A stretch of 64,000 bases of DNA, taken from the human T2T-CHM13v2.0 reference genome, Homo sapiens. The translations under genes were made by a program, and so were the position numbers. The stretch lies in assembly GCF_009914755.1 (NCBI RefSeq), contig NC_060941.1; one strand, written 5' to 3'. Shown one piece after another: positions 3,736 to 63,308 of the stretch. Each line of letters opens with the position of its first letter. Within the stretch, counting starts at the first letter, position 1. The notes under the pieces are model-generated. The model saw nothing but the letters and a program-made list of their open reading frames with translations. It ran no database searches and was not told where the DNA came from.

Positions 3736-5925
3736 TGATATGGACGGGAGGCAGAGAAACACTGGGTAGAAGAGGGCAGTTCCCTGGCAAATGCCCCACC
3801 CTCAAGCCTGGGAACCCACGCCCCTAAATTGGAACAGGCATTCCTGTTTTTGCACCCAAATGTTGCCTTTTCCAAGACTACTCTGGCCTGCCACGCCCCT
3901 ATCCTGTGTCCATATGACAGCTAGGCCTCCATGAAGGGAAAGAGAGCCCATATTACTTTTACCCAAAGGAAAGAGAGAGGCGGCAGGATCTTGGAAAAGA
4001 GACAGATCCAATAGTTCTGCCTCTTTACCTCTTAAACCCCAAACTCCATGAGCAGAGGAACAGAACGGCAGTGGCAGAGAAGGAGAGACGAGAAGGAGCG
4101 TCTGAATGTCAGGAGAAGTTCGGCTGGGGACAGTTGAAGAGGAGATCAGCCGCGGGATGGCTGAACTCCAAGGGAAGATCATCTTCCCACTCCATCCATT
4201 CTCCAGCTCCCCATTCATCCCATAAGAGCCACATCCATAACTCATTAAAATCTCCACATTCACCATCGTTCAAGTCTTCTTGAACGATGACCTGATTCTT
4301 CCAGGATGTCAGACAAGGACCTGGGTACCAAGAGGGCAGGGTATAAAAGGCTGTCACCCTGACTCTCCACTGAGACGAAGTAGCCGTCTGCAGATAGCAA
4401 CTGCTAAAAGAGTATTAATTGTAACACACCTTTGGATGCTACCATGGGGCCAGAGCCCAAAAGTGCTTGCCCCAGCTCCTGCACCTTCCCATCTGTGTGT
4501 TCCCCCTCCTATAAGGGGTAAAGTGTGTGACAGTGGAGCAAATGAGCCACACCCCTGTCGCAAGTCCCGTGAGGGGGTCAGGGAACTCTCCCATTTCATC
4601 TGGGGGCTCGTCTGGGATACAGCACAAGGATGAGTACAGATTTAGAACTGTCGGATCTGCCTCTTTTCCAAGATTCTGCCACCTCTCTTTTTCCTTTGGG
4701 TAAAAGGAATATTGGCTCTGTTTCTCTTCATGGAGGTCTAGCTGTTGCACGGGATGGAATAAAGTCCTGGGGCAACAGAAGCCATCTTTTGTTGCTGGAA
4801 GGCTCCAAGACTGAACTCTGTAGGCCAAGAACCCCAGACTTTGCTGTGGTATCTTCTTTCATGGCTTGAAATGGCTCCTATCTCTTCTTTTATAGTATTA
4901 AGGGCTTTGCTGCAACTACCGAGATGTTACTAAGTACAAGGTATGCTTGGTTCAGCCATCAGATGTGCAATTCACAACAATGTAGTTTCTGTTTCTTCTT
5001 AGAGGTGCCATCCCCAGCCGCAGGTGTGCGCAGTGCATGAGTGACTCCCCTCCTTCTCCCTTCCCCTCCTTTTCCCCTCCCCGCCTTCTCCCCTCTCCTC
5101 CCAGCTCTGCACATGAGCTGCACCCAGTGGCCACGAGGGGCGGGAGAAAACCTTGGCTGCCGCTGGGGCCCTAGTGCAGCTGGCTGGCCGGTGCCTCCCA
5201 CTCACTGCACCAGCAGAGCCTCTCCTCCCATGGTTGAGGGGTCCTTACTGGTCTGAACCAGGGGCGGAATACAATAAAGGAACCCATTTGCACAGAGCAA
5301 GAAGTTCCTTCCCTCTTTTTTAGTAGTATAAGCGGTTTCCTTTTTCTTTTCTAAGTGAGAGGGTTCCTTTCCCCGGCACGCTGCTTTTAATAGGGAAAAT
5401 AACAGAGGAGCGACCCCTGCTGGCCAATAGCTGCAAATTCGGCAGGGCCCCTTTGAGACTTGATCTAAACAGATTCATGCAGCCCCTGAAATACCTTTTT
5501 TGTCTGAAACTCAATTCCAGCCTTCAGGTTGAGGCCCTAGAAAGGAAAACCAGATCTGAGGGATCCAAAGCCTGGCAACAGGCACAATGTAAATGGGAAG
5601 GGCCAATTCCTGCTGACTAAAACCTTGCTTCATGAAAGGAGGCCATGCTCCATGACATAGATGAGGCCCAGGGAACTCAAAGGTTGTTGGCAGCAAGGGA
5701 AATAGGGCATAATGTGTAAGAGTGGATACTCTCACCCCCCCAGGCCCCCCTGTTAACATGAGTAAAAGCCGCTTCAGCACCCATGGGTGGCATCTGCCAA
5801 GGTCACTGGTACATGGGGACAAAAAGACAGAAAACGGGGATGCCTGCTTTCTCTCCATCAAACCCTGAGTTATCACTAAAAGAAGGGAAGGAAATGAGGG
5901 TCACCTCTATTTCTTGTCTTTCAGA

Positions 5926-7467: not shown

Positions 7468-8495
7468 GCACTAGATTATTTCTTTGTATAATACACGTTT
7501 AACCCATGCATACTTAACACCTTATAAAACTTGTTTTTTTCTCTCAAATTTGAGGTCATGAAAATCCAAATGGTCAGGCAACCGGAGCCTTGGATGATGA
7601 CTCCCTTTCCCCAGGGATCCTTAGATAGACCTCTGGGAGGAATCTGACTTCTGTTTTCCCCAAAAACAATGTCCTCTGTCAGCAGGAAGTAGCTAAGATA
7701 GGTCATTGTCCATATTCTAATGGCAATTAGATGGGCCTCTTAGAGGGTGGAAATGATACAGATACAGGCAAGGAAATACTGGGTAGAAGAGGGCAGTTCC
7801 CCAACAAAGGCCCACCCTGAAGCCTGGAAATCCATGGCCCTAAATGGGAGCAAGCATTCCCATTTTCATGCCCAAATGTTGCCTTTTCCAAGACCACTCT
7901 GGCCTGCCACACCCCTATCCTGTGCCCATATAAACCCCAAGCTCTACAAGCAGAGGAACAGAAGAGCAGCAGAGTAGCAAAATGGCATGGCAGAGGAGAG
8001 AAGAGAAGGAGCATCTGAATGTCAGGAGGAGTTCGGCTGAGGACGGTTGGAAAGCAGATAAGCCGGGGATGGCTGAACTCCAGGGGAAGATCATCTTCCC
8101 ACTCCATCCCCTTTCCAGCTCCACATCCATTCCTCTGAGAGCCAACTCCATCACTCAGTAAAATCCCCACCTTCACTATCCTTCAGGTTGATGTGACCTG
8201 ATTCTTCCTAGATGCCAGACAAAGACGGATACCAAGAGAGCAGAATATAAAAGGCTGTCACCCTGACTCTCCACTGAGTGGAATAGCCATCCACGAAAAG
8301 CAACTGCTAAAGAGCACTAATTGTAACACACCCCTAGATGCTACCATGGGGATGGAGCCCAAAAGCGCTCGCCCTGGCTCCTGCACCTGCCTGTCTGCAT
8401 GTTCCCCCTCCCACAGGGGATTTGAACGTGCAGCAGCCTTGCAAATGAGCCACACCCCGTCACAAGTCCTGTGAGGAAGTCAGGGAACTCTCCTC

Positions 8496-22964: not shown

Positions 22965-25419
22965 CCAGTTTCTCCCAAAAGTGACATGTTGCAAAACGAT
23001 AGTACAATATAGTAGAGGATATTGACATTGATATCATCAATATACAGAAAAGTTCCTTCACCACAAGGCTCCCTCATGTAACCCTTGTATAGCTACACTT
23101 ATCTCCCTCCCACCCATCCCACCCCTTCCTCAATTCTTGGCAACCACGAATCTGTTCTCCATGTTTATAATCTTGTCATTTTATGAATGTTATGTAAATG
23201 GAATCATATGGTATGTCACCTCTTGGGATTGGCTTTATTCACTCAGCTGAATTCTCTGGAGATTCATTCAGGTTGTTGCATGTGCCAATAGTTCATTCTT
23301 TTTATTGCTGAATAGTATTCCATGATATGGTTGAACCACAGTTTGTTTAATCATTTATCCACTGAAGGACATCTGGGTGTTTCCAGTTTTGGGCTATTAT
23401 AAATAATGCTGCAATAAACATTCATGTACTGCTTTGTTTATGTGAATGTAAGTCTTCATTCTCCAGGATAAATGCTCAAGGGTACGATTAACATTTAGCA
23501 TGGCTATCAATACTTTAAGACAAGTTCTGTGATCAAGTATTTTCTTTTTAAGTAAAGTAGGGGGCATGTGTTTGTTTTTTTCAGCACCTTCCTTTCTTCT
23601 GGAAAGATGCCCTCTTCTTGGAGGAACTGCCCATGTAGCTATTAGGTTCTGTGAGGCTCTTGCCCATCACAGTACCTCCTCCTTTGCAATAGATGTGCAC
23701 CTACCTCCCCAGTCAGACAACTGGGGTCCTTCCCAGGGATTTTTCAGATTCTAATGACAGAAAAGCAGCAGCTCCTTCAGGAAGTGGAGGTCCTGTGGTC
23801 TGCCTTCAGAAGAGCAATGCCATTGATACCAGGATCCTGTGGAACTGCATGCCCTGGGGCTGGTTTTCCCTGAGCTGTACGCCTGCCATCCACTCTGAAT
23901 TTATGAGCTAATAAACTATTTCTGGTTTTGCTCGAGGAAATTTTGAGAGAGCTTTCTGTCACATAAGACTCAAAGTATAAAGAATCTTTCATTCCCCACT
24001 CCTGGGCTCTTTCTGGCTTCGTGCTCATGGTTCTGACTCTCCTCTCCTTCAGTTCTGAGGTCCCAACTGTCAGGGCCCAAAGAAACCGCTCAAGTTCTTG
24101 CTGTGTCCAGCACAATTTTCATGGAACAGCCCTTGGTGTTTTCTCCAAGGCTCTGATACCAAATCTACACTGAGACCTGGAGCCTATGGCTTCCTTGGGC
24201 CCCCAGAGGGCTGGGAGTCATAATTTGGCACAATGAGTGAGAGCTGAGAGAAAGTGGGCCTGGGATTAAATCCTGGGCAGAGAAATTCCCAAGGGCTGGC
24301 AGAGGTGAGGGGATGGGGTAGGAGCCTTGGGCTCTGCTCCTGCTGCATCCTGAACTGGGATACCTCAACTGCAGTGTGGCGACTGTGCTGTGAGCTCTAG
24401 ATCACGGCTGGCATCATGGGCGTGTGACCTGTGCAATTACACAGGTCCTTGCTCTTGGTTTCAGGCTCTGCTGCCGTTGTTGTTTAGGAGTTAGTAGTTT
24501 TTTAACAAGGGGCCTAACACTTTCATTTTTCACTGGGTCTTGTGTAGTCATGGCTTCAGGCACTGTGGAGTTGTCACTAATGTACTGCACCCTTTGGATG
24601 ATGAAGATGAGGCACAAGAGGCTGAGGAGTTGAGACTCTGTACAAGTTCCTACCTTCCCCATGGAATCCTGGAGACTTCTGGCTTTGGGCAAGTCTCCTT
24701 TCCGAGGGGTTGCTCCCTATTCCCCAGGACCCTATACACACCTGAGCCAGTGTCCTCCACGGTGATTCATGCGATCCTTTCAGGCAGTTCCCTCTTTCTT
24801 CTTCTTTGTCCCAGACTTGGCCCCTCTCTACCCACTGGGACCACCTCCTCCATCTCTTTGAAGGCTCAGCCCAGGCCAAAAGGTGCTCAGCTTCTCTCTG
24901 TGTCTGCACACCTGATAGGTGTCCAGAAGTCTTCCTCTCCCTTGGGAAGTACCCAGCCTTCCTCCTCTTTTCAGGCCCTGCTAGCTTTTTTCACCCCTGA
25001 GGTCAGCAGTTGGAACCCAAGTTCCCCAAGGTCAGTGGTTGGAGCCCAAGTTTGCCTGACTCTAAAGCCTGTGATTGTCTTATTATATCTTGCTCTTCTT
25101 GTTACAACAGTGATTATTTTAACAATCATTATCATTTATTAAGTGCTTACTATGGGCAGGTCAGGACCAGATGGTGGTAAATGAGGCACTAGCCTTGCGC
25201 TTGTGTTGAAAACCCAAGGGGACACCAAAAAGTTCAGTAGTAAAAATAAGTAATATTTTAGTGAACTATTTAAAAAATCAAAATTACTACTGAAAAAATC
25301 ACAATGAACAAAACACAAAAACACTTAAATAAAGACAGGATCGGTAACAGTGCTGTGCCGAGCCATATTGGAACTTGAGGAAAAAGGTAAAATCAATGGG
25401 AGCTTCCTGTTAGAATATC

Positions 25420-25576
25420 CACCCATCCATCTGTCCATTCATCAATATGTCCATCCATCTATCCATACATCTGTCCATCCATCCATCCATCTCCCATCCA
25501 TCCATCCATCCATCTGTCCCTCTGTCCATCTGTTCATCCACCCATCCACCTCTCATCCATCCATCTGTCCATCCAT

Positions 25577-25612
<36 letters not shown>
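25420..25612. repeat. (CCAT)n degenerate microsatellite
   Basis: Directly visible; explains the HPSI/MDGW ORFs. Confidence 0.95.
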
Positions 25613-25613
<1 letters not shown>

Positions 25614-26358
25614 TAATATAAATTTACTGAGCATCTACCACGTGCTGGGCATTCTGCTCAGCACCAAGAGTATCACACAAAGAGCCAAAAAGATTATGTT
25701 CCTTTCCTCCTGGAGACAAAATTAAATAATCACACAAATAAACATGTACTTATACACTGTGATAAGCAACACCATGGAAAAGAATATATTGGGGGCCCAG
25801 AGAATGCCTCTCTGAGAAAGTAGCATTTAAGCTGAGAATTATAAAATGAGCAATGTTTGCTAAGTTGACAAGTGAGGAAAAGGGAGACAAAGGTAAGGGA
25901 AGTAGTTTGTGCAAAAGTCTTGAGGCAGGAGGTACTAGCACATATCAGGGACTGGTTGGTATTAGTTGAGAGCAACTAGAAAAATCATGGGTCCTGCCTT
26001 GAGTTTTATACAAGGGCAGAGGAAGAACCAGCCCTCAAAATTAAAGACACAACGGGAGACCAAAATGAAAGCTGCTATATAGTTTCCCCCCAAAGTTGTC
26101 CTCGTTCAAGCTATCAGTGACACATACGCAGGGGCTGTTGATTTATGCCTATCATGAGGCATCTGCCTCTCTTCCTGGGAGTGTGAGACTCATGCCAAAA
26201 GCTTAGCGGTGGTCTGCAGTGGCCTCATCTAGGGCTGCTCCTGGGAATGCACTGGAAAGAGAAGCCCCCTTCGAGGCTTCTCTGGGTTCATTTCCTTTAA
26301 ATCCAAAGCCCTTCTTTGGGTTCATTTCCTTTAAAGCATGGCCAGGTCAGCTTCAGGC

Positions 26359-28100: not shown

Positions 28101-29531
28101 TGAGGGTGTCACAGGCTGTGGTGTGTCAGAGGAGGTGGAGATGGGCCACTTTGGTCTGGGAGGATCGGAGAAGATGTAGCATTTGACAGAAATCTTGAAA
28201 AGCAGACAGAGAAAGCAGGAGAGAGAAAGCAGAAGAGAAAGTGGAGTTTGCAAACTCCATGGATAGAAAGAACCATGAGAGACAAATGCCTAGAAGTAAG
28301 AAATCCATATTTGGGTTTGCGGTTTGGCCATACAATCTAACTTTCAAGGAGCAGATCTATATCTAATATGCTGCATATTATTTCAAGGCCACCCAAAGTC
28401 CATATATAGGGGCCCTAGTCCCCACCTCATGGGTCCTTCTAAGCTTTTTGCTTCACGTGCCAACTCCCTCCTCTCCAGCCTGACTTGCTGGAGTCCAGTG
28501 ATCCAGCTGGGTCCAATACAGCTTTCTTCCAATATCCTTCTTTACTTTCTCCAAAGCTCAAGTAACATGTTCACAAGTCAATGTCTAATATTGCTACCAA
28601 CAGCTCACTGGGTCCCTGAGCCTCCACATACCCCAAAGAGGGTGTCAGAGCCAAGCTTCAGAATAGAATGGAATTCAGCACAGTGGAGGAGATCAGGAAA
28701 AAACTGTCATTGGGGATTAATCTCAGGGCAGGACAGCTACCATGCAGTGGCGGGGGCTGTGGGATTAGCGGTTGGCCATGACTAGATCCTTTCTCTCCAT
28801 GCTCAGAGTGTTTCAGCTCATCCAATTAACCCTGAACTAATGTTTACCTCAAACCCAAGCAGGCGAGACATTTACTTGTGTCTAAATTATGAGTCAAGGG
28901 GTAGAAGGATCAAAAATGGAGGAATGCAAAAGCTGAGGAGGGATCATCCCATCTTTCTTCCATTCTCTGGTAAATTTGGGGGCTTTTGTCTCCTTCCCGA
29001 AGGATGAGCTCCAACCAGGGTCAGAGCAAGACCTGAGTGGTCCTAGGCTCTAAAAAGGTTATTCTGTGTTTCAGCATGTAATTTCAAATACCCAATACTA
29101 ACTGAAAAGTAATGATAAGACTGTATAAGGGACTTTTGATTTTTTTAAATAATAGCCACTTTGATCACTGTGTACATGCATGAAGTTGCAAATATTGTAT
29201 TCTTTCAAAAGCATTATTTGTTGATTTCCTAAGCACCTGCCGGTTGCCTATTGGGCAATGCAGCACTGATTCCATTCACTTGGACTCCCAAGTCCACCCC
29301 ACCCCACTTCTAGCAGCCTCCTTTCAGCCTTCTCCTTCCCTTCCCCACCATGCTGCTCCATTTACTGGGAACTGCTTCCACCTGGAAGACTCCAGCCCAG
29401 GCCAGAAAGCCCCCAGGCTGGCCCTCTACTGCCTCTCCCTGTGTCTGCAACACCTGGCAGGTGCTCTGACGGTTGGTGCTTCTCTCAACAGTCTCCATCC
29501 CACTGAGTCTGATTAATGGAGTGAGACTCAC

Positions 29532-29644
29532 AGGGTGGTGGGTTTGGGACACACTTCATGAATTAGACAGATAATAATGTATCACATACTTGCATGGGAT
29601 CCTCCAGGTGATGTAGCAGCACTTACTGATGTTGTCATTCATAT
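29532..29644 (-). pseudogene. Psi-C: isolated CC-chemokine cysteine exon
   Basis: ctgcttctttccAG|AT ATG AAT GAC AAC ATC AGT AAG TGC TGC TAC ATC ACC TGG AGG ATC CCA TGC AAG TAT...TGT CCC AAA CCC ACC ACC CT|GTGAGT; reads MNDNISKCCYITWRIPCKYVIHYY / LIHEVCPKPTT with one frameshift. Confidence 0.8.
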
Positions 29645-29939
29645 CTGGAAAGAAGCAGGTGGAAGTAGGGCTAAGCCATGCTCTAGGAGACTCAGACATG
29701 CTACTCCGTGCACCAAGAATGGGAGGCAATGCCTTTCACTCAGACAAGAAACACACCTAAAGCCAAAATACTAAATTACCTACAGCCACTGGAATCTGCC
29801 ATTTCTCTTGTGTAAGTTGTTCATCATCATTGAATAATAAACCCACTCACACTTTATCCCTACCAGGAACCTCACTCTCGCTTGACCAAATCCACTATCC
29901 TTTTTTTTGTGTAGGAGAAAAAATAAGGATCTTTATTTG

Positions 29940-32513: not shown

Positions 32514-32994
32514 TAGTTATGTGCCACATAATGATGTTTTTATCAATGACAGACTACATATATGACACTTAACAACATGCATATGTTCTGAGAAATGCTT
32601 TGTTAGGCAATTTCATCATTATACAGACATCATGTACTTACACAAACCTAGATGGTGTAGCCTACTACACATCTTATTATAAGATTATAATACCATAATT
32701 TGTTCAGCAGCAATACATTAAACAAAAATTATGCTACCTTATTTTTACTGTACCTTTTCTATGTTTAGGTATGTTTAGGTACACAAATACTCACCACTGT
32801 GTTACAACTGCCTACAGTATTCTGTACAGTAGCATGCTGCACAGGTTTGTAGCCTAGGAGCAATTGCTGTACCATATAGGTGTGTGGCAGGCTCCACCAT
32901 CTAGGTTTGTGTAAGTATGTGATGTCTGTACAATGAAATTGTCTAATGAAGCATTTCTCAAAACCTATGCCCATCGTTAAGCAACATACGACTG
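32514..32994 (+). mobile_element. Tigger3/Golem-like DNA transposon with internal inverted duplication
   Basis: Homologous to the copy at 63726; degenerate TIRs; TA flanks. Confidence 0.75.
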
Positions 32995-33220
32995 TATCTG
33001 TTTCCTGAATTTAATTGTTTCCCCGGCTGATTCCAGAGTATTTTCTATTGACCATTGACTATGAGGCCCTCTGTCTACACCCTTCCCCAGATGTTCATTG
33101 CTTCCAGAGAAGGAAATGGGGTTGGTCCAGCTTGATTCGGCCTAACTGCACCATGCTGACTTGCAGTGACTACTTCCTTTCTGAAGTGCCAACAAGAGGT
33201 TTTTTAAAATAAGAATTATA

Positions 33221-33555
<335 letters not shown>

Positions 33556-34512
33556 CTAGAGGCAGCTGACCACTCTGAAGTTGATGGAGTCTATCGTCTA
33601 TTTTCTTTCTCCCTCCTTTTTTGGAAAGCTGGGTGCTATTTTCTCATCTTCAATATTCCACAACCTGTCTGCCTCCCAAGAATCTGCAAAGATCATCAAT
33701 CTCTACCATGTGTTTTCTCAGCTGATAGAGAGGACTTCATCCAAGTCAAGGGACTGAGAAGCCACCCATCTTGGGCTTCGATTTCTTCGTATCTTTGGGA
33801 ATTATCCCCATTCTAGCCTATAATGGACAGAGAATGAATGAATAAAAATTGGAGACCACATGTTCTGCTTTATCCCTTCCATCTGTTCAGTTAACACTCT
33901 TTATTCATTTACTCATTCATTTATTCTGTAAATATGTATTGAATACATACCATGAGCAGAGCACTGGAGATTCAGCTGCAAACAAGATGCATAGGGCCTT
34001 CTGTGAGTTTAAGCAAACAGTAAGCCTCTGGCACCTTCTTCCTAAAGTAAAACAAAGCAAACACTTTTACCATCATTCACTATTAAAAAAGCAACACTAT
34101 GGAAAAATTTTGAAAATATTTAAGCAAAAAGAAGTCAGCAAAAATCCCCTGTGATCCCACAATAACATTCTTAGATGTGTCTTCATCTTTTTTCCCTGTT
34201 TGCTTTCTCCCTACGTGGGATCATACCAAAAAAAGTCATATTCCATGTTTTCACAAGTTGTGTACAATTTCAATTTCATTGTAAAATTCTTATATGCAAT
34301 TTAAAATAATTTTTAACAAAAAAGATGCCTGCTTTTTAACAGAATTTTTAAGAAAATCAAATAAATGAAAAAAATCTCTTTACTATCAATATTTTGATGT
34401 GTAAGTTTCAAGTCATGTTTTTGTATGTAGTCATTATGTATAATACAGATATACAGTTAAACAAAAATGAGGTAATAATAACTGTTCTTTTCTACAGCCT
34501 GATTTTTACAGG

Positions 34513-36743: not shown

Positions 36744-36864
36744 CTAGCACTTTTCTTGCTGGGTCCAGACCTTGCCGGGGTTTAATTCCAGTTGCTGATG
36801 TATTCCTGGACCCACACCTTGCTGGAGTTGGCATAGACCTTTCCAGTCTCCTCTGTGGAGGAAG
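36744..36864 (-). pseudogene. Psi-B exon 3 (CC chemokine C-terminal exon)
   Basis: ccatTG (acceptor lost)|C TTC CTC c ACA GAG GAG ACT GGA AAG GTC TAT GCC AAC TCC AGC AAG GTG TGG GTC CAG GAA TAC ATC AGC AAC; reads FL/TEETGKVYANSSKVWVQEYISN/LELN. 3' boundary uncertain. Confidence 0.85.
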
Positions 36865-37006
36865 CAATGGTAAGAGAGAGAAGTGAATAAAGAAGAGACA
36901 ATCCTGCAGCAGAATGCCTGTAACCTCCCCATGTTTCTCTACCCTGGGGATCTCAGAGACAGTTTATTTTCAGAGCCAGGAGCATCCCGCAAATCCCAAG
37001 ACCTAG

Positions 37007-37351
<345 letters not shown>

Positions 37352-37638
37352 CCAAGACCTAGATTTTTTAAAAAATTGTTCATGAGTTTCTTCTCGGGTT
37401 GACTTCCCTCTGCTATCCTTTCCTTTCCTCTTCTCTGCATGAAGGTGGCTCTTCCTTGGCTCCCTACAGGCTGTGGGTCCATGCAGAAAACACCACAGGG
37501 ACCTATCCCTATGTCCTGCATGTCTAATGAGTTCCTGGAGGTCTGGGTCTCCCAGGTTCCCCCTCCATCTCTTGAGTCTTGGGGGCTGTGTGTCCCTCCA
37601 TGTCTCTCCCCTACGAGTGGCAAGAGGGCTACACCTAC

Positions 37639-37716
37639 ATGCTGAGAGCATCCACTGCTGGTCTCTAATGCAAATTTGTGAATAACCTACTGGAAAATGT
37701 TTGAGAAGCAGCAAGA
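37639..37716 (-). pseudogene. Psi-B exon 2, 3' part
   Basis: SCCFSNIFQ*VIHKFALETSSGCSQ then CAT|GTAGGTG donor, the same junction as CCL23 exon 3. Confidence 0.85.
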
Positions 37717-41900
<4,184 letters not shown>

Positions 41901-52962: not shown

Positions 52963-53319
52963 ATATTAGAAACATTACAACATAGTGCAAAGATCAAATA
53001 TTCATTGAAAAATGCATATCCAGAAATTCTGTGGTTGATGAATTTGGTCGAATATCTAGAGAGAGGATTTAGCACAAACATTCAGCACCATCTAGAATCA
53101 CTGTGTACTATGTGGTTTCTTAGAGAAAACATTCAATAAAAACAATTTAAAATTGGAAATACACAATAAAAGTGAAATAAATTAAAATTTAAGTTTGGTT
53201 TGGTTATGGGGGGACTAGACCATAAAGGAGGTAGCTTCTGGGGTTGTAAGTGCTATTCTTCTGGCTCAGCTCCCTGTTCCCCAATCTACTGATGGATTTA
53301 ATTTTTTTTTCTGGGCTAT

Positions 53320-53406
53320 TCAGATTTAGCTCTGGGTTTTGATGTATTCCTGGACTCAGCATCTCTGGGGTTGACACAGACCAGCTGACCTCTTTTAGTC
53401 TGAAAG
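53320..53406 (-). pseudogene. Psi-A exon 3
   Basis: ctttccccatAG|C TTT CAG ACT AAA AGA GGT CAG CTG GTC TGT GTC AAC CCC AGA GAT; reads FQTKRGQLVCVNPRDA/*VQEYI/NPELN. Confidence 0.92.
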
Positions 53407-53816
53407 CTATGGGGAAAGGCAGAAGATTAAGAAGAATCTAGCCAGCTGGGAAATTTCTGGACCCATTGTGGCCCCTCCATCCCTCTTTCTGACTTGTCCT
53501 CTCAGAGTCTCTCTCTTTCTCAGCAATCAGCTCCCATGCCTTAGGGTTCCAGTTTCCCAGAGTATCTCATGAGAATCTCTTCAGTCAGCACCCTCCTGCC
53601 ATCATGTCCTCCCTCTCTCTTCCTCTGCCCCTGGCCAGCCTCTCCTGTCTCCCTGATGACCCTGGACTGTTCAGAAAATACCTCAGAGACTCTTCTGTGC
53701 CTGTGAGGGGCCCAGAGAGCTGGGTATTCCCAGGATGGTGTCCAATCCACCTCCTTACACCCATGGGGGCTGCTCCAGTGTCTCCCCCAGGAATGGGAAG
53801 GAGGAATGGCCCTTAT

Positions 53817-53931
53817 ACAACACTGGGCTTAGAGCACAGGCTGCAGGTTTTATAACAGTCTGCTGCAAAATCTTGAGGGATCTTCTAGGGGGTATAAGGG
53901 AAGCAGCAGGAGGCTGTGGAGTCAACACCAG
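53817..53931 (-). pseudogene. Psi-A exon 2 (115 nt)
   Basis: cttctcctacAG acceptor; SGVDSTASCCFPYTP*KIPQDFAADCYKTCSLCSKPSVV; TAG 53885-53887; donor GTAAG mutated to ATAAG. Confidence 0.95.
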
Positions 53932-54645
53932 CTGTAGGAGAAGGCACAGCAAGAGACTGAGTTATTGAGAAGCCATAGAAAACCAACTTCCCCTCTCCAT
54001 GCCCCCTGCTCTCCCTTTAACCCAAAAAAGATCAGAAGGAACTAGAAGGAACTAGAAGGACACAGCATTTCTTAAGTTGGGGAATTCAGATGAACTGGGA
54101 CACACATGTCTTTCCTACAAATTACTTTGCCTTTGTCTATATCACTCCATTTTTATTTTTATTTTTACTCTTTTAGGGATTTAGCTCACTAAAATGTCTC
54201 ATCTTCCAGTTCATCTCTTTTGGGAGGGAAATTTGTCTGTCCTGTGATATCGCAATACTAAAGAGATGAAGCTGGGATATGTCACATATCACCAATAGGA
54301 CAGGCCTCTACGGAATAGCTGACATGAATTTAGGCTTACATGCACCAGTGGGAAATAAATAGAGCTGCCAGTTACTCTGTGAATTGGGCCTCAATTATCT
54401 TATCAGGAAAGTGGAAATTAGCATCTCCTGCTCCCACTCTCTGAACCACTTGGTGGAATGTGATAGCCTGGACCCTTTTGAAAAAAAGACTTTTTGAAGA
54501 GAATGGCCAGGGCGATTTGAATTCCTGTTTTGAGTGCTCCATTTTCAACTCTGGTGATCTTTATTTTCAGGGCATGTTTGGTGTGGTCTCACCTGGGGCC
54601 AAAAAGGGTAACATCTGAATAAGGCAGAAGAGATGACACTCTCCC

Positions 54646-54723
54646 ACAGTACCAAGGAGGTCTGGGAGCAGAGGACCACAATAGGGGGAGGAGAATGGTG
54701 GAGACAGTTGAAAATGCCTGTGT
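54646..54723 (-). pseudogene. Psi-A exon 1
   Basis: tgcctgcccagcatc (identical to CCL18 60232-60246), then ACA in place of ATG; QAFSTVSTILLP/IVVLCSQTSLVL; donor GTGAG mutated to GGGAG. Confidence 0.88.
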
Positions 54724-54836
54724 GATGCTGGGCAGGCAAGGGATTCTGGGCTTGAGTGTCAGCATAGTTAAGACAAGCAAGCTTGCGTATTTGAAGCTGG
54801 CACCTCCTTCTTGGGTTCAAGCCATTGCCCCTTCTC

Positions 54837-54842
54837 TTTATA
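54837..54842 (-). promoter_or_regulatory. Psi-A TATA box (CTATAAAGAG context)
   Basis: Same context as the CCL18 TATA in this window (ctataaa...agaaggagg). Confidence 0.75.
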
Positions 54843-55002
54843 GAGAGTTCCATTTTGTGGGAAGATAGAAACTGGGGATGATTGGAGGAAAATATTTTAA
54901 TCAGAATGTTAGTGTCATGTTGGGAGTTACATAATTCAGGGGTTGCCAACACCCTTTGGTCAACACAGAAGTTCCAAGTATATGCAAGAATAGCTTACCT
55001 TC

Positions 55003-60962: not shown

Positions 60963-61064
60963 ATAAGATTCACACCCCATGCATCTGCTGCTTCTCCTAC
61001 ACCTCCCAGTAGATGCACTGCAAATTTTCGGTTGCCTATTATAAAACCAGTGGTGAGCGGTCTT
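60963..61064 (+). pseudogene. CCL18 intron-1 pseudoexon (MIP-1alpha-like exon 2)
   Basis: ttgttccctcAG|AT AAG...; DKIHTPCICCFSYTSQ*MHCKFSVAYYKTSGERS; TAG 61010-61012; truncated by L1M-like sequence. Consistent with the known gene-fusion origin of CCL18. Confidence 0.9.
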
Positions 61065-63308
61065 AAAATTAAAATCCTATGATATATTTTAATTACTTTA
61101 TACAGTCAATATTCATTTAGTTTTCATCACATATTTGCTCTTCCTGTCCTCTTAAATTCTTCTGCATCTCTGAGCTCCATCTGCAATCACTTTTCTTCTG
61201 CCTAAAGGAATCCTCTTAGTATTTTCATTACTGTGGGTCTTCTGATAGTGAAGTCTCCATTTTTTGCTTGCTTGGAAATGTCTTCATTTTACCTTCATTT
61301 TACCTTCACACTGGATATGAAAGTCCATAGTAGCTCCCACCTCCTACTTGTGCTTACGTGCTCCTTGTCCCTTGTCCCATGGGTTGTCTCCTCCATATGC
61401 CCTATTTGCAGACAGAAGGACTGATGCTGACATTACGCCAGGGTAAGAGCACCAGCTGCTGGAGTCAGCAAATTTGCAGTGGATATGGAGAAACATAAGA
61501 GAGGCAGGAGACAATGGGGTGCCTTAACCGTGAGGGAACCAGCATCCAGAACCTGAGAAAAACCAAGTAAATTTCTTCCACTCTTGAAAAGGGACCAGCA
61601 AGAAGTTGATGAAGACCTCACTGCTCAGGACTGTGAAGTAGGGCACAAAAGGAACTAAGGAAGTCAGGCATTCATCCTTGACTTTGAGTGTTTCTTTTAA
61701 ATCTCTGCCTCTGTCTTACTCTCACTCCCTTGCTCCCTCTTCAGGGAGTATAGCTCTTGGAATGGCTGGCCTTTGTTCCATCTCTTTTGGGTAGGAACTT
61801 CATTCAGTCTACAGAGACTTTTCCCAGCAAGAGACCATCATCTCTAAATCGCTGTAGGAGTAGAGCTTCTCAGGAGAACTGAAGGAACTCTGCCACTTCC
61901 TCACCCTAGGAACCAACTAGACCCAGAGTTTGCATCTTGTGAATGACTGAGTTAGGCCCCAGTTTTCCCAACTAACAATGGGTCCTAGCCCTCTCCTGCC
62001 TTTCAGATCTAGGTTAGATATCTAAGTCCTCAGAAAATAGCCCAGAACATTTTGAAACCTTTTGTGAAGTTCTTTGATTTTACTTAGAGAATCTTAATCC
62101 ACAAGAATTAAGTGATATGGCTTAAATGTCTGTCCAGAGCATAGGGAAACAACTCTAAAATGAAGAAAGGACAAGGGTCAAGAGAGTCTCACGGGACAGA
62201 TGAGACTTGTGAGCTGAGGGCCATGGAGAGGAGATGGAGGGCACCAAAGAAGACCTGTTCAGTGTTGGGCAGGCAGAGGAGTGTAGGCAATGCCAAAACA
62301 GGACTGGGCACTCACTGCCACCTACATCGTTCTGGGGTCCAAGCCATGTCCTCAACCCTTTACAGGCAACTCTAAACCATGAGGAGCTGGAGACTGGGGA
62401 TGACCAGAGGGGAAGATGTTAAGTGCATGGTGTCTTGCTCTGAGTTGTACATGTTGGGGTACCTTGGGTCCCCCAGGGGTTCAGGATGTACAAGAGCAAC
62501 TCAACTGCTCACTTGTTGGGGCTGAATGTGCAGAAATGTTTTTGACAGTGAGAGAGGGTGAGATGTTAGTGTTGAAGTCATACGTACAAGGAGAGATCTT
62601 CAGATTAACACTTCCACCACAGAGCAGCTCTCTAATGCTGTGCTGCAGCTCCTCTGACCACATGGTGTGATGTAAATGGTCATGCCACAGCGTTCTGGGC
62701 AGCACAAGTCACATTTAAACCACACCCTGGGTGAAAAGGACCATTACATCGTGTTAATCGGAGTGCTTCTAAGAAATGCTTAACTCATGAGGAGGACGTC
62801 AAGAATTGGTGTTACCAAGAAGCCAAGCTTAGCTGGTACCTTCTATCAAGAACAGATCTATTTGTGAATGGCACCATGGTCATTTCCTCCTATGGAACAG
62901 ATATTTCTAGTGTTGTGTTTCCATTGCACAGAAGTGACATGTAAGATGATACCCCAGAATCTTAAGTAGTTCGAGTTGTGTTTGATCCAGACCCAAATGG
63001 ACAGAATGGAATAGGGAAAGTCTGGACTATGGGAATGACAAGAATGATGGGGCCAGGCTTTTAACTGCTGTTTGATTCATTGAACATTCATAGCTCCCTA
63101 CAATATGCCATCATTGGGTTTGACTCTGGGTAATAGACATGAATATGCATGACATATGGGGTGTCTATATAGATCAGGAGCCTTAGATGCCCTTATTTTT
63201 TCACCCAGGAAGCCCACAGCTAGGAAAATATCCTACAGAAATAACCTCACTTATGGAGAAAGTTTTTTGCATACAGATGTTTGGCACAACTTATAACAAT
63301 GAAAAATT

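What the first reader, a model, noticed from the sequence alone, without database searches (positions are those of the whole stretch)
29532..29644. Psi-C: orphan chemokine exon mixing CCL18-like and CCL23-like features, splice sites intact
Reads MNDNISKCC--YITWRIPCKYVIHYY(+4 nt)LIHEVCPKPTT. YITWRIP and CPKP resemble CCL18 (YTSWQIP...CPKP). IPC carries the extra cysteine of the 6-Cys group, as in CCL23 RSIPCS in this window. Length 113 fits 115-6+4. The acceptor ctgcttctttccAG and donor GTGAGT are intact, so the exon could still be spliced into a noncoding transcript. Exon 1 was not found and exon 3 has only a weak candidate near 29057.
Basis: partly seen in the sequence, partly recalled or inferred. 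Interest (0 to 1): 0.8.

Follow-up and report, generated by a model that had tools for sequence, protein, structure and literature searches.

The report
Decayed CC chemokine pseudogene remnant
This is a genuine but dead leftover of an old CC chemokine gene between CCL23 and CCL18, one of several such relics there, and it is ordinary gene-family debris, not a new kind of element.

Summary
The 113-nt minus-strand segment 29532-29644 exists as described. It has an AG acceptor, a GTGAGT donor, a CC motif, a 6-nt deletion and a +1 frameshift.

**It is a real chemokine exon-2 homologue.**
- A DNA profile built from 11 other exon 2s of the cluster finds it at E=9.5e-5 in 134 kb.
- A protein profile of the seven functional exon-2 peptides gives 17.1 bits; 0 of 2000 shuffles reach that.
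- The best solved-structure hits are CCL18 (E=0.006) and CCL14.
- Pfam's generic IL8 model does not detect it.

**It is not an orphan.**
- The DNA downstream is collinear with CCL14 intron 2, exon 3 and 3'UTR (E=5.6e-15, 3.2e-6, 5.9e-4).
- The true exon-3 relic lies at about 28886-28813, and its acceptor is destroyed.
- Exon 1 was not found.
- A second, similar relic lies at 24137-25050.

**It is not a CCL18/CCL23 mosaic.**
- An AU test rejects a sister relation to CCL18 (p=7.9e-5).
- CCL23 and CCL15 are among its least similar exon 2s.
- The "extra" cysteine is one CpG transition away from the Arg codon that CCL4 carries at that position.

Verdict: an unannotated, ancient, non-functional pseudogene fragment. 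Low interest.

The parts
29645..29697 (-). End of intron 1: polypyrimidine tract and intact AG acceptor
   Evidence: Sequence. CCL14 tile -19786..-19576 aligns to 29503-29697 (E=0.0085). The acceptor aligns with those of the other exon 2s.
29532..29644 (-). Exon-2 relic (Psi-C): CC motif, 6-nt deletion after CC, +1 frameshift at CTGT (29570-29567), CPKP, then intact GTGAGT donor
   Evidence: nhmmer E=4e-4 and 9.5e-5. Protein HMM 17.1 bits, 0/2000 shuffles reach it. PDB top hits CCL18 E=0.0062 and CCL14 E=0.31.
28887..29531 (-). Intron-2 relic, 645 nt.
   Evidence: blastn: 29327-29473 vs CCL14 intron 2, 69.6% over 148 nt, E=2e-11. nhmmer: 29326-29658 E=5.6e-15. Reciprocal search: best hit CCL14 (1.1e-7), then psi77 intron 2 (2.3e-5).
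28813..28886 (-). Exon-3 relic, heavily decayed. The acceptor-equivalent CAG has become TAA. A TGA aligned to the CCL14 stop lies at 28815-28813.
   Evidence: nhmmer alignment to CCL14 exon 3 and flanks, E=1.9e-9 in a 501-nt target. Tile 28749-28967, E=3.2e-6. The coding part aligns with low posterior probability; the position is fixed mainly by the flanks.
28644..28812 (-). 3'UTR relic
   Evidence: CCL14 -20505..-20333 aligns to 28644-28801, E=5.9e-4. The alignment continues to 28723.
24137..25050 (-). Second relic ('copy B'): end of exon 2, intron 2, exon 3 (starts 24606, acceptor AG->AT) and 3'UTR of a related dead chemokine gene
   Evidence: nhmmer tiles E=1.8e-5, 4.9e-7, 1.4e-7, 6.4e-6. 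Exon-3 profile E=0.0076-0.033. Whole copy vs CCL14 E=5e-13 and vs psi53 E=1.6e-12. Groups with Psi-C at 89/89 support.
25363..25690 (-). Stretch similar to the DNA just downstream of CCL14 (-21274..-20937), lying between the two relics
   Evidence: nhmmer tiles E=7.8e-14 and 2.5e-16. Whether it belongs to Psi-C's unit is inference.

Best explanation
Psi-C is exon 2 of a dead, unannotated CC chemokine gene of the 17q12 MIP cluster. It lies on the same strand as CCL23/CCL15/CCL14/CCL16. What survives is the 3' two-thirds of the gene:
- end of intron 1 with the acceptor;
- exon 2 (29644-29532);
- intron 2;
- a badly decayed exon 3 (about 28886-28813);
- 3'UTR (to about 28644).

It arose by an old tandem duplication inside the cluster. 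It was then disabled in several ways: exon 1 and the promoter are lost or unrecognisable, 6 nt are deleted after the CC motif, there is a +1 frameshift, and the exon-3 acceptor is lost. It has since drifted neutrally to 49-58% identity with every other exon 2.

It does nothing as a protein. The intact AG and GT of exon 2 are leftovers, not evidence of use.

Shown: the homology and the anatomy. Inferred: the duplication history, the neutral drift, and the CpG origin of the 'extra' cysteine. Among functional genes its non-coding DNA is closest to CCL14, but the data place it, together with copy B, on its own long branch.
For: **Exon-level homology from unbiased scans.**
- nhmmer E=4e-4 and E=9.5e-5.
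- In one search all 11 training exons scored E<=8.3e-23, and the only other hit below E=1 was CCL16's true exon 2.
- Protein HMM of the 7 functional exon-2 peptides: 17.1 bits, 0 of 2000 shuffles reach it (maximum 12.1). In the six-frame scan, E=0.0011, rank 10 of 6,874 fragments.
- PDB phmmer: 3 of the 4 hits at E<=10 are CC chemokines, CCL18 at 0.0062 and CCL14 at 0.31 and 0.42.

**Collinear non-coding homology to CCL14.**
- 29326-29658, E=5.6e-15.
- 28749-28967, E=3.2e-6.
- 28644-28801, E=5.9e-4 (all).
- blastn: 69.6% over 148 nt, E=2e-11.
- Alignment shown.

**Boundaries.** The exon boundaries and phases match the family. The best-scoring 113-nt register in a scan of 127,776 segments is exactly 29532-29644.

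**Context.** The region holds other relics found with the same profiles: psi53, psi37, psi61, psi61rev, psi77 and copy B.

**Published precedent.** PMC3749542 (passages and the Figure 4 legend read) states that inactivated CCL3 copies flank CCL18.
Against: - Pfam IL8 (PF00048) reports nothing for the read-through peptide at E<=10, while the CCL23 exon control scores 9.3e-8.
- tblastn with CCL23 gives only E=1.6.
- Plain blastn of the exon finds no paralogue.
- In the 113-nt scan, Psi-C (126) is only slightly above unrelated segments (119, 115).
- The exon-3 coding relic aligns with low posterior probability.
- Subfamily placement is unresolved. Psi-C+CCL14 has UFboot 60 on exon 2 alone but is not recovered on the longer alignment (AU p=0.065).
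- The Psi-C+copy B pairing (89/89, not starred) joins the two longest branches and could be long-branch attraction.
- No cross-species or expression data were available.
Confidence: 0.85

Rival explanations
1. Psi-C is a CCL3/CCL18-type (MIP-1-alpha-like) pseudogene, like the inactivated CCL3 copies that flank CCL18.
For: - The best PDB hit is CCL18 (E=0.0062).
- It shares W-x-IP-x-K and CPKP with the CCL18 exon 2.
- Exon-2 DNA z-scores against CCL3 (3.6), psi61 (3.2) and psi53 (3.2) are good.
- Its intron 2 also matches psi77 intron 2 (E=2.3e-5).
- The AU test does not reject membership of the CCL3-like clade (p=0.09).
- PMC3749542 says humans carry inactivated CCL3 copies.
Against: - The AU test rejects sisterhood with CCL18 (p=7.9e-5).
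- The ML tree places Psi-C outside the CCL3-like clade, which has 82/92 support.
- Identity to the CCL18 exon 2 is only 50% (z=2.5).
- The best non-coding match is CCL14, not a CCL3-like gene.
Confidence: 0.2
2. Psi-C is a relic of a six-cysteine (CCL15/CCL23, mouse Ccl6/Ccl9 type) chemokine gene, as the IPC cysteine suggests.
For: - IPC is at the same position as IPC in CCL23 and CCL15.
- It lies 16 kb upstream of CCL23 on the same strand.
- The AU test does not reject a clade with CCL15+CCL23 (p=0.12).
Against: - CCL15 and CCL23 are among the least similar exon 2s (49-50% identity; z=1.5 and 2.3; only CCL16, psi77 and psi61rev have lower z).
- The CCL15/CCL23 duplication covers only the gene bodies and stops about 250 nt upstream of the start, so it does not reach Psi-C.
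- Neither CCL23 nor CCL15 appears among the PDB hits at E<=10. That both have solved structures is recalled, not checked.
- TGC is one CpG transition from the CGC Arg codon of CCL4. The CCL3-like relics psi61 and psi61rev also carry TGC there.
- The partner cysteine cannot be checked because exon 3 is too decayed.
Confidence: 0.08
3. The exon is still in use: its intact acceptor and donor let it be spliced into a noncoding (or nonsense-mediated-decay) transcript, for instance one starting at or near the upstream lncRNA LOC105371746.
For: - AG with an 11-of-12 pyrimidine tract, and GTGAGT, are both intact.
- The lncRNA lies upstream on the same strand (annotation supplied with the finding).
Against: - No RefSeq transcript covers 24-33 kb (annotation supplied with the finding).
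- The lncRNA's last exon ends at 33728, 4 kb upstream.
- Of the 5 other exon-2 relics, 3 keep the acceptor AG and 2 keep the donor GT (alignment). Keeping both is therefore expected by drift in roughly one relic in four to six.
- The exon-3 acceptor is destroyed.
- No expression data could be consulted.
Confidence: 0.07
4. Chance resemblance: a random stretch that happens to read like a chemokine exon.
For: - Pfam IL8 gives no hit.
- tblastn gives E=1.6.
Against: - Three unbiased scans give E between 9.5e-5 and 1.1e-3.
- Independent collinear homology of the flanking intron and 3'UTR to CCL14 reaches E=5.6e-15.
Confidence: 0.02

Closest known systems
CCL14 (HCC-1) gene, 47-50 kb away on the same strand
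   Same: - Best non-coding match: intron 2, the exon-3 flank and the 3'UTR are collinear.
- Best exon-2 DNA z-score (4.57; 0 of 1000 shuffles reach it).
- Shares the YY of DYYET, and has an Arg codon where Psi-C has Cys.
- Second-best PDB hit.
   Different: - Only 56% exon-2 identity.
- Psi-C has a 6-nt deletion, a frameshift, no exon 1 and a dead exon-3 acceptor.
- Its intron 2 is 645 nt; the intron stretch that is 141 nt in CCL14 is 358 nt here.
- The clade with CCL14 is not recovered on 607 columns (AU p=0.065).
Human CCL3 pseudogenes flanking CCL18 (Figure 4 legend of PMC3749542, citing Nomiyama et al. 2003, which is not held) - here probably psi53 and psi77
   Same: Dead members of the same cluster, found by the same profiles, with the same kinds of lesion: stops, lost splice sites.
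   Different: - psi53 and psi77 keep all three exons and sit in the CCL3-like clade.
- Psi-C lacks exon 1, is far more diverged (branch length 0.61) and falls outside that clade.
- I found no mention of Psi-C in the papers I could read.
Pseudo-exons inside CCL18 intron 1 (PARC fusion origin, Tasaki et al. 1999; cited in PMC3749542, not read)
   Same: psi61 (60963-61077, +) is likewise a single chemokine exon-2 relic with an intact acceptor. It also carries TGC at the IPx position and YY.
   Different: psi61 is CCL3-like and lies inside a live gene. Psi-C is intergenic and of another lineage.
Guinea-pig CclN1, a novel gene between Ccl23 and Ccl3a (PMC3749542)
   Same: It occupies the equivalent interval of the cluster.
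   Different: - The paper says CclN1 is most like Ccl24 and Ccl2.
- Psi-C hits CCL18 and CCL14 and nothing else at E<=10.

Membership tests
CC chemokine gene (IL8-like fold, Pfam PF00048), exon 2 | Adjacent CC motif followed by the third conserved Cys at family spacing | tested here: met
   CC, then 21 positions, then the C of CPKP. CCL14 has 23 positions. The difference equals the 6-nt deletion.
CC chemokine gene (IL8-like fold, Pfam PF00048), exon 2 | Score at or above the Pfam gathering threshold | tested here: not met
   No PF00048 hit at E<=10 for P0001. The CCL23 exon control scores 32.6 bits, E=9.3e-8.
CC chemokine gene (IL8-like fold, Pfam PF00048), exon 2 | Significant match to cluster-specific DNA and protein profiles in an unbiased scan | tested here: met
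   nhmmer E=4e-4 and 9.5e-5. hmmsearch E=0.0011; 0 of 2000 shuffles reach the score.
CC chemokine gene (IL8-like fold, Pfam PF00048), exon 2 | Exon boundaries and phases of the family's exon 2 (AG / GT; 2 nt + codons + 2 nt) | tested here: met
   The best register is exactly 29532-29644.
CC chemokine gene (IL8-like fold, Pfam PF00048), exon 2 | Intact reading frame and complete three-exon gene (a functional member) | tested here: not met
   +1 frameshift. Exon 1 not found. Exon-3 acceptor lost and exon-3 coding part decayed. It is therefore a pseudogene fragment.
CCL18 / CCL3-like (MIP-1-alpha) subgroup | Groups with CCL18 or inside the CCL3-like clade on gene sequence | tested here: not met
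   Sister to CCL18 is rejected (AU p=7.9e-5). Inside the CCL3-like clade is not rejected (p=0.09) but is not the ML placement.
Six-cysteine CC chemokines (CCL15/CCL23 type) | Extra Cys after IP, paired with a C-terminal Cys in exon 3; clade with CCL15/CCL23 | tested here: inconclusive
   The first Cys is present. The partner cannot be assessed because exon 3 is decayed. The clade is not rejected (p=0.12). Exon-2 similarity is low, z=1.5-2.3.
CCL14-like | Closest relative is CCL14 in both coding and non-coding sequence | tested here: inconclusive
   CCL14 is the best match for intron 2 and the 3'UTR, and has the best exon-2 z-score. UFboot is 60 on exon 2. The clade is not recovered on 607 columns (AU p=0.065).

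The most novel reading that the evidence does not exclude
Psi-C and the neighbouring copy B may be the human remains of a separate, since-lost lineage of MIP-cluster CC chemokines. That lineage would be neither CCL3-like, nor CCL15/23-like, nor CCL14 proper. It could still be an intact, unnamed gene in some other mammals, and would then mark a chemokine that humans have lost. A lesser variant is that the exon, with both splice sites intact, is still captured by a noncoding transcript.
Probability: 0.25. Interest if true: 0.35.

Novelty: new member of a known kind. Interest (0 to 1): 0.2.

Why it matters
It adds a small detail to the birth-and-death history of the human 17q12 chemokine cluster.

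The CCL23-CCL18 interval holds at least four dead chemokine gene fragments: copy B, Psi-C, psi37 and psi53. Two of them (Psi-C and copy B) fall outside the known CCL3-pseudogene group.

This is useful for annotating T2T-CHM13 and for orthology maps of chemokines across mammals. It has no evident bearing on human chemokine function.

Tried and rejected
**Tests of Psi-C itself that gave nothing**
- Pfam IL8 on the read-through peptide: no hit.
- First splice-bounded DNA alignment, with free end gaps and +1/-1 scoring: uninformative. It was replaced by global scoring.
- Plain blastn self-comparison: only Alus and one unrelated repeat. Homology appeared only with profiles, and with the CCL14 locus fetched from the genome.

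- It reads FLEPRTTQV, a +1 step, then CSDPGW.
- PDB gives only obelin at E=1.6.
- Pfam gives nothing.
- nhmmer with exon-3 profiles gives nothing, even in a 1.5-kb target at E<=1000.
- Rejected.

**My own interim idea**
- I first thought exon 3 had been displaced 4.3 kb, to 24.6 kb, by an insertion (after).
- rejected this. It showed that Psi-C has its own exon-3/3'UTR remains at 28.6-28.9 kb, and that 24.1-25.05 kb is a second relic.

**Exon 1**
- Searched with an exon-1 profile and with CCL14 intron-1 tiles: nothing between 29.7 and 36 kb except Alu matches.

**External sequence and literature**
No external chemokine set came from that tool.
- The CCL15/CCL23 duplication does not reach Psi-C.
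- The guinea-pig CclN1 lead could not be tested, because no sequence was available.
The chemokine sequences and tree in the supplement of PMC3749542 could bear on the CclN1 question.
- Nomiyama 2003 and 2010 and Zlotnik 2006 are not held, so I cannot say whether Psi-C is drawn in their maps.
- Searches for 'CCL14 pseudogene', 'CCL14-ps', 'CCL14P1', 'CCL14-like' and 'HCC-1 pseudogene' found no paper.

Full report
**1. The observation**

On the minus strand, 29644..29532 is a 113-nt stretch preceded by ...ctgcttctttccAG and followed by GTGAGT.
- In the phase used by CCL23's homologous exon (two leading nucleotides, then codons), it reads MNDNISKCCYITWRIPCKYVIHYY.
- A four-base step (CTGT) then restores LIHEVCPKPTT, with two trailing nucleotides.
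- The arithmetic 115-6+4 = 113 is right.

**2. Is it more than chance?**

Single-sequence tests are weak.
- tblastn with CCL23 gives E=1.6.
- Pfam's IL8 model reports nothing at E<=10, while the CCL23 exon control scores 9.3e-8.
- phmmer against 177,635 PDB sequences returns four hits at E<=10. Three are CC chemokines: CCL18 at E=0.0062, and CCL14 at 0.31 and 0.42.

The decisive tests are unbiased scans with cluster-specific profiles that exclude Psi-C.
The three references ranked first. The two other segments above it, 37628-37740(-) and 61430-61542(-), proved to be further chemokine relics.
- An nhmmer profile of those five sequences finds Psi-C as the only additional hit in the window (E=4e-4; next E=1.4).
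- I then fetched the flanks from the window's own genome.
- A profile of 11 exon 2s (CCL3, 4, 14, 15, 18, 23 and five relics) gives Psi-C E=9.5e-5 over 134 kb. The next hit is the true exon 2 of CCL16 (E=0.073).
- A protein HMM of the seven functional exon-2 peptides gives the read-through 17.1 bits. None of 2000 shuffles reach it (maximum 12.1).
- In a six-frame scan of 6,874 fragments, the uncorrected fragment scores E=0.0011. It ranks tenth, after seven genes and two relics; the next hit has E>=0.14.

**3. What surrounds it**

A sensitive blastn of 19.5-39 kb against the rest of the cluster gave three matches to CCL14:
- 29327-29473 matches CCL14 intron 2 (69.6% over 148 nt, E=2e-11);
- 28895-28966 matches the end of that intron (E=0.008);
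- 24539-24621 matches CCL14 exon 3 (E=0.003).

Tiling the CCL14 gene with nhmmer resolved this into two collinear sets.
- **Set A, the Psi-C locus:**
  - 29326-29658: exon 2 plus intron 2, E=5.6e-15;
  - 28749-28967: intron end plus exon 3, E=3.2e-6;
  - 28644-28801: 3'UTR, E=5.9e-4.
- **Set B, a second relic:** 24786-25050, 24681-24926, 24543-24755 and 24137-24362.

The alignment places Psi-C's exon-3 start at 28886.
- The acceptor-equivalent CAG has become TAA.
- A TGA aligned with the CCL14 stop lies at 28815-28813.
- The coding part of exon 3 aligns poorly; the flanks fix its position.

- It lies in 28968-29325, a 358-nt intron stretch with no aligned counterpart in CCL14.
- It hits no chemokine in PDB or Pfam.
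- No exon-3 profile detects it.
- It is a chance resemblance.

No exon 1 was found.

**4. Which kind of chemokine gene?**

- Exon-2 DNA identity to every other member is only 49-58%.
  - Best z-scores: CCL14 4.57, CCL4 3.94, CCL3 3.63.
  - Lower: CCL18 2.5, CCL23 2.3, CCL15 1.5. Only CCL16, psi77 and psi61rev score lower still.
- On exon 2 alone, Psi-C pairs with CCL14 at UFboot 60.
- On exon 2-intron 2-exon 3 (12 rows, 607 kept columns of 1171), the tree gives:
  - Psi-C pairs with copy B (89/89, not starred);
  - CCL3, CCL18, psi53, psi37 and psi77 form a clade (82/92);
  - CCL15 and CCL23 pair at 100/100.
- AU tests:
  - sister to CCL18: rejected, p=7.9e-5;
  - with CCL15/23: not rejected, p=0.12;
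  - with CCL14: not rejected, p=0.065;
  - Psi-C + copy B + CCL14: not rejected, p=0.115;
  - inside the CCL3-like clade: not rejected, p=0.09.
- The reciprocal search shows intron 2 is best matched by CCL14 (1.1e-7), then psi77 (2.3e-5). Intron-2 homology is thus shared across the cluster.
- Caveats: pairwise identities on the trimmed alignment are 39-47%. The two relics have the longest branches, so their pairing may be long-branch attraction.

The CCL18-like residues (W, K, CPKP) are therefore convergent or chance.

The 'CCL23-like' cysteine is TGC at a position where CCL4 has CGC and CCL14 has CGT.
- One CpG transition from an Arg codon suffices; this step is inference.
- The CCL3-like relics psi61 and psi61rev also carry TGC there.

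The CCL15/CCL23 duplication covers only the gene bodies and does not reach Psi-C.

**5. How it works**

It does not work.
- The anatomy is that of a pseudogene fragment: no exon 1 or promoter detectable, a 6-nt deletion, a frameshift, a dead exon-3 acceptor and a scrambled exon 3.
- Retention of both exon-2 splice dinucleotides is unremarkable. Among the five other exon-2 relics, three keep the AG and two keep the GT (alignment).
- Whether the exon is ever captured by a transcript cannot be tested here. RefSeq shows none, and the nearest same-strand lncRNA ends 4 kb upstream.

**6. Comparison with what is known**

- PMC3749542 (passages and figure legends read) states three relevant things:
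  - humans carry inactivated CCL3 copies, two of them flanking CCL18 (citing Nomiyama 2003);
  - CCL18 arose by fusion of two CCL3-like genes;
  - guinea pig has a novel gene, CclN1, between Ccl23 and Ccl3a.
- psi53 and psi77 are probably those two CCL3 pseudogenes.
- I found no mention of Psi-C, copy B or psi37.
- Searches for CCL14-pseudogene terms found no paper.
- A broader search found nothing relevant in the listing (listing only).

**7. Verdict**

- It is partly wrong: it is not an orphan, it is not a CCL18/CCL23 mosaic, and the exon-3 candidate is misplaced.
- It is a new, minor member of a well-known kind, namely birth-and-death debris of the MIP chemokine cluster.
- Interest is low.

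Noticed in passing
window 36771-37740 (-): psi37: a CCL3/CCL4-like pseudogene.
- Exon 2 (37628-37740) reads ...NSCCFSNIFQ*VIHKFALETSSGCSQHVGV.
- Exon 3 (36771-36878, nhmmer E=9.7e-8) reads ...VYANSSKVWVQEYISNWN*.
- An Alu (37004-37384) sits in intron 2.
- No exon 1 was found.
- The first exon of lncRNA LOC105371746 (36646-36732) begins just downstream of its exon 3.
   Followed up: partly
window 53309-54847 (-): psi53: a complete three-exon CCL3-like pseudogene (exon 1 54660-54847, exon 2 53817-53931, exon 3 53309-53420).
- It has an in-frame stop in exon 2, and the exon-2 donor GT has become AT.
- It is probably the published CCL3-ps on the CCL23 side of CCL18.
   Followed up: partly
window 60963-62387 (CCL18 intron 1): CCL18 intron 1 holds a plus-strand pseudo-exon 2 (60963-61077). 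Facing it is a minus-strand CCL3-like relic, with exon 2 at 61417-61538 and exon 1 at 62206-62387 (E=5e-11). A plus-strand pseudo-exon 1 follows at 65538-65728, outside the window. The inverted relic is not part of the simple two-gene fusion picture as I recall it.
   Followed up: partly
window 24137-25050 and 25363-25690 (-): Copy B is a second decayed chemokine gene 3' part (exon 3 starts at 24606). A 330-nt stretch between copy B and Psi-C resembles the DNA just downstream of CCL14 (E about 1e-14 to 1e-16). Together these hint that the two relics are tandem units.
   Followed up: partly
L006 / window coordinates 77089-78581 (-), outside the window: psi77: a three-exon CCL3-like pseudogene between CCL18 and CCL3 (exon 1 78482-78581, exon 2 77603-77686, exon 3 77089-77193). 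It is probably the published CCL3-ps on the other side of CCL18.
   Followed up: no
window 32515-32997 vs 63727-64087: A non-Alu repeat of about 280-480 nt is shared between the Psi-C upstream region and CCL18 intron 1 (73-80% identity). An internal inverted pair lies at 32568-32674 / 32878-32981. The family was not identified.
   Followed up: no
window 4090-4591 vs 8003-8493: A local 500-nt direct duplication (81% identity) lies downstream of CCL23.
   Followed up: no
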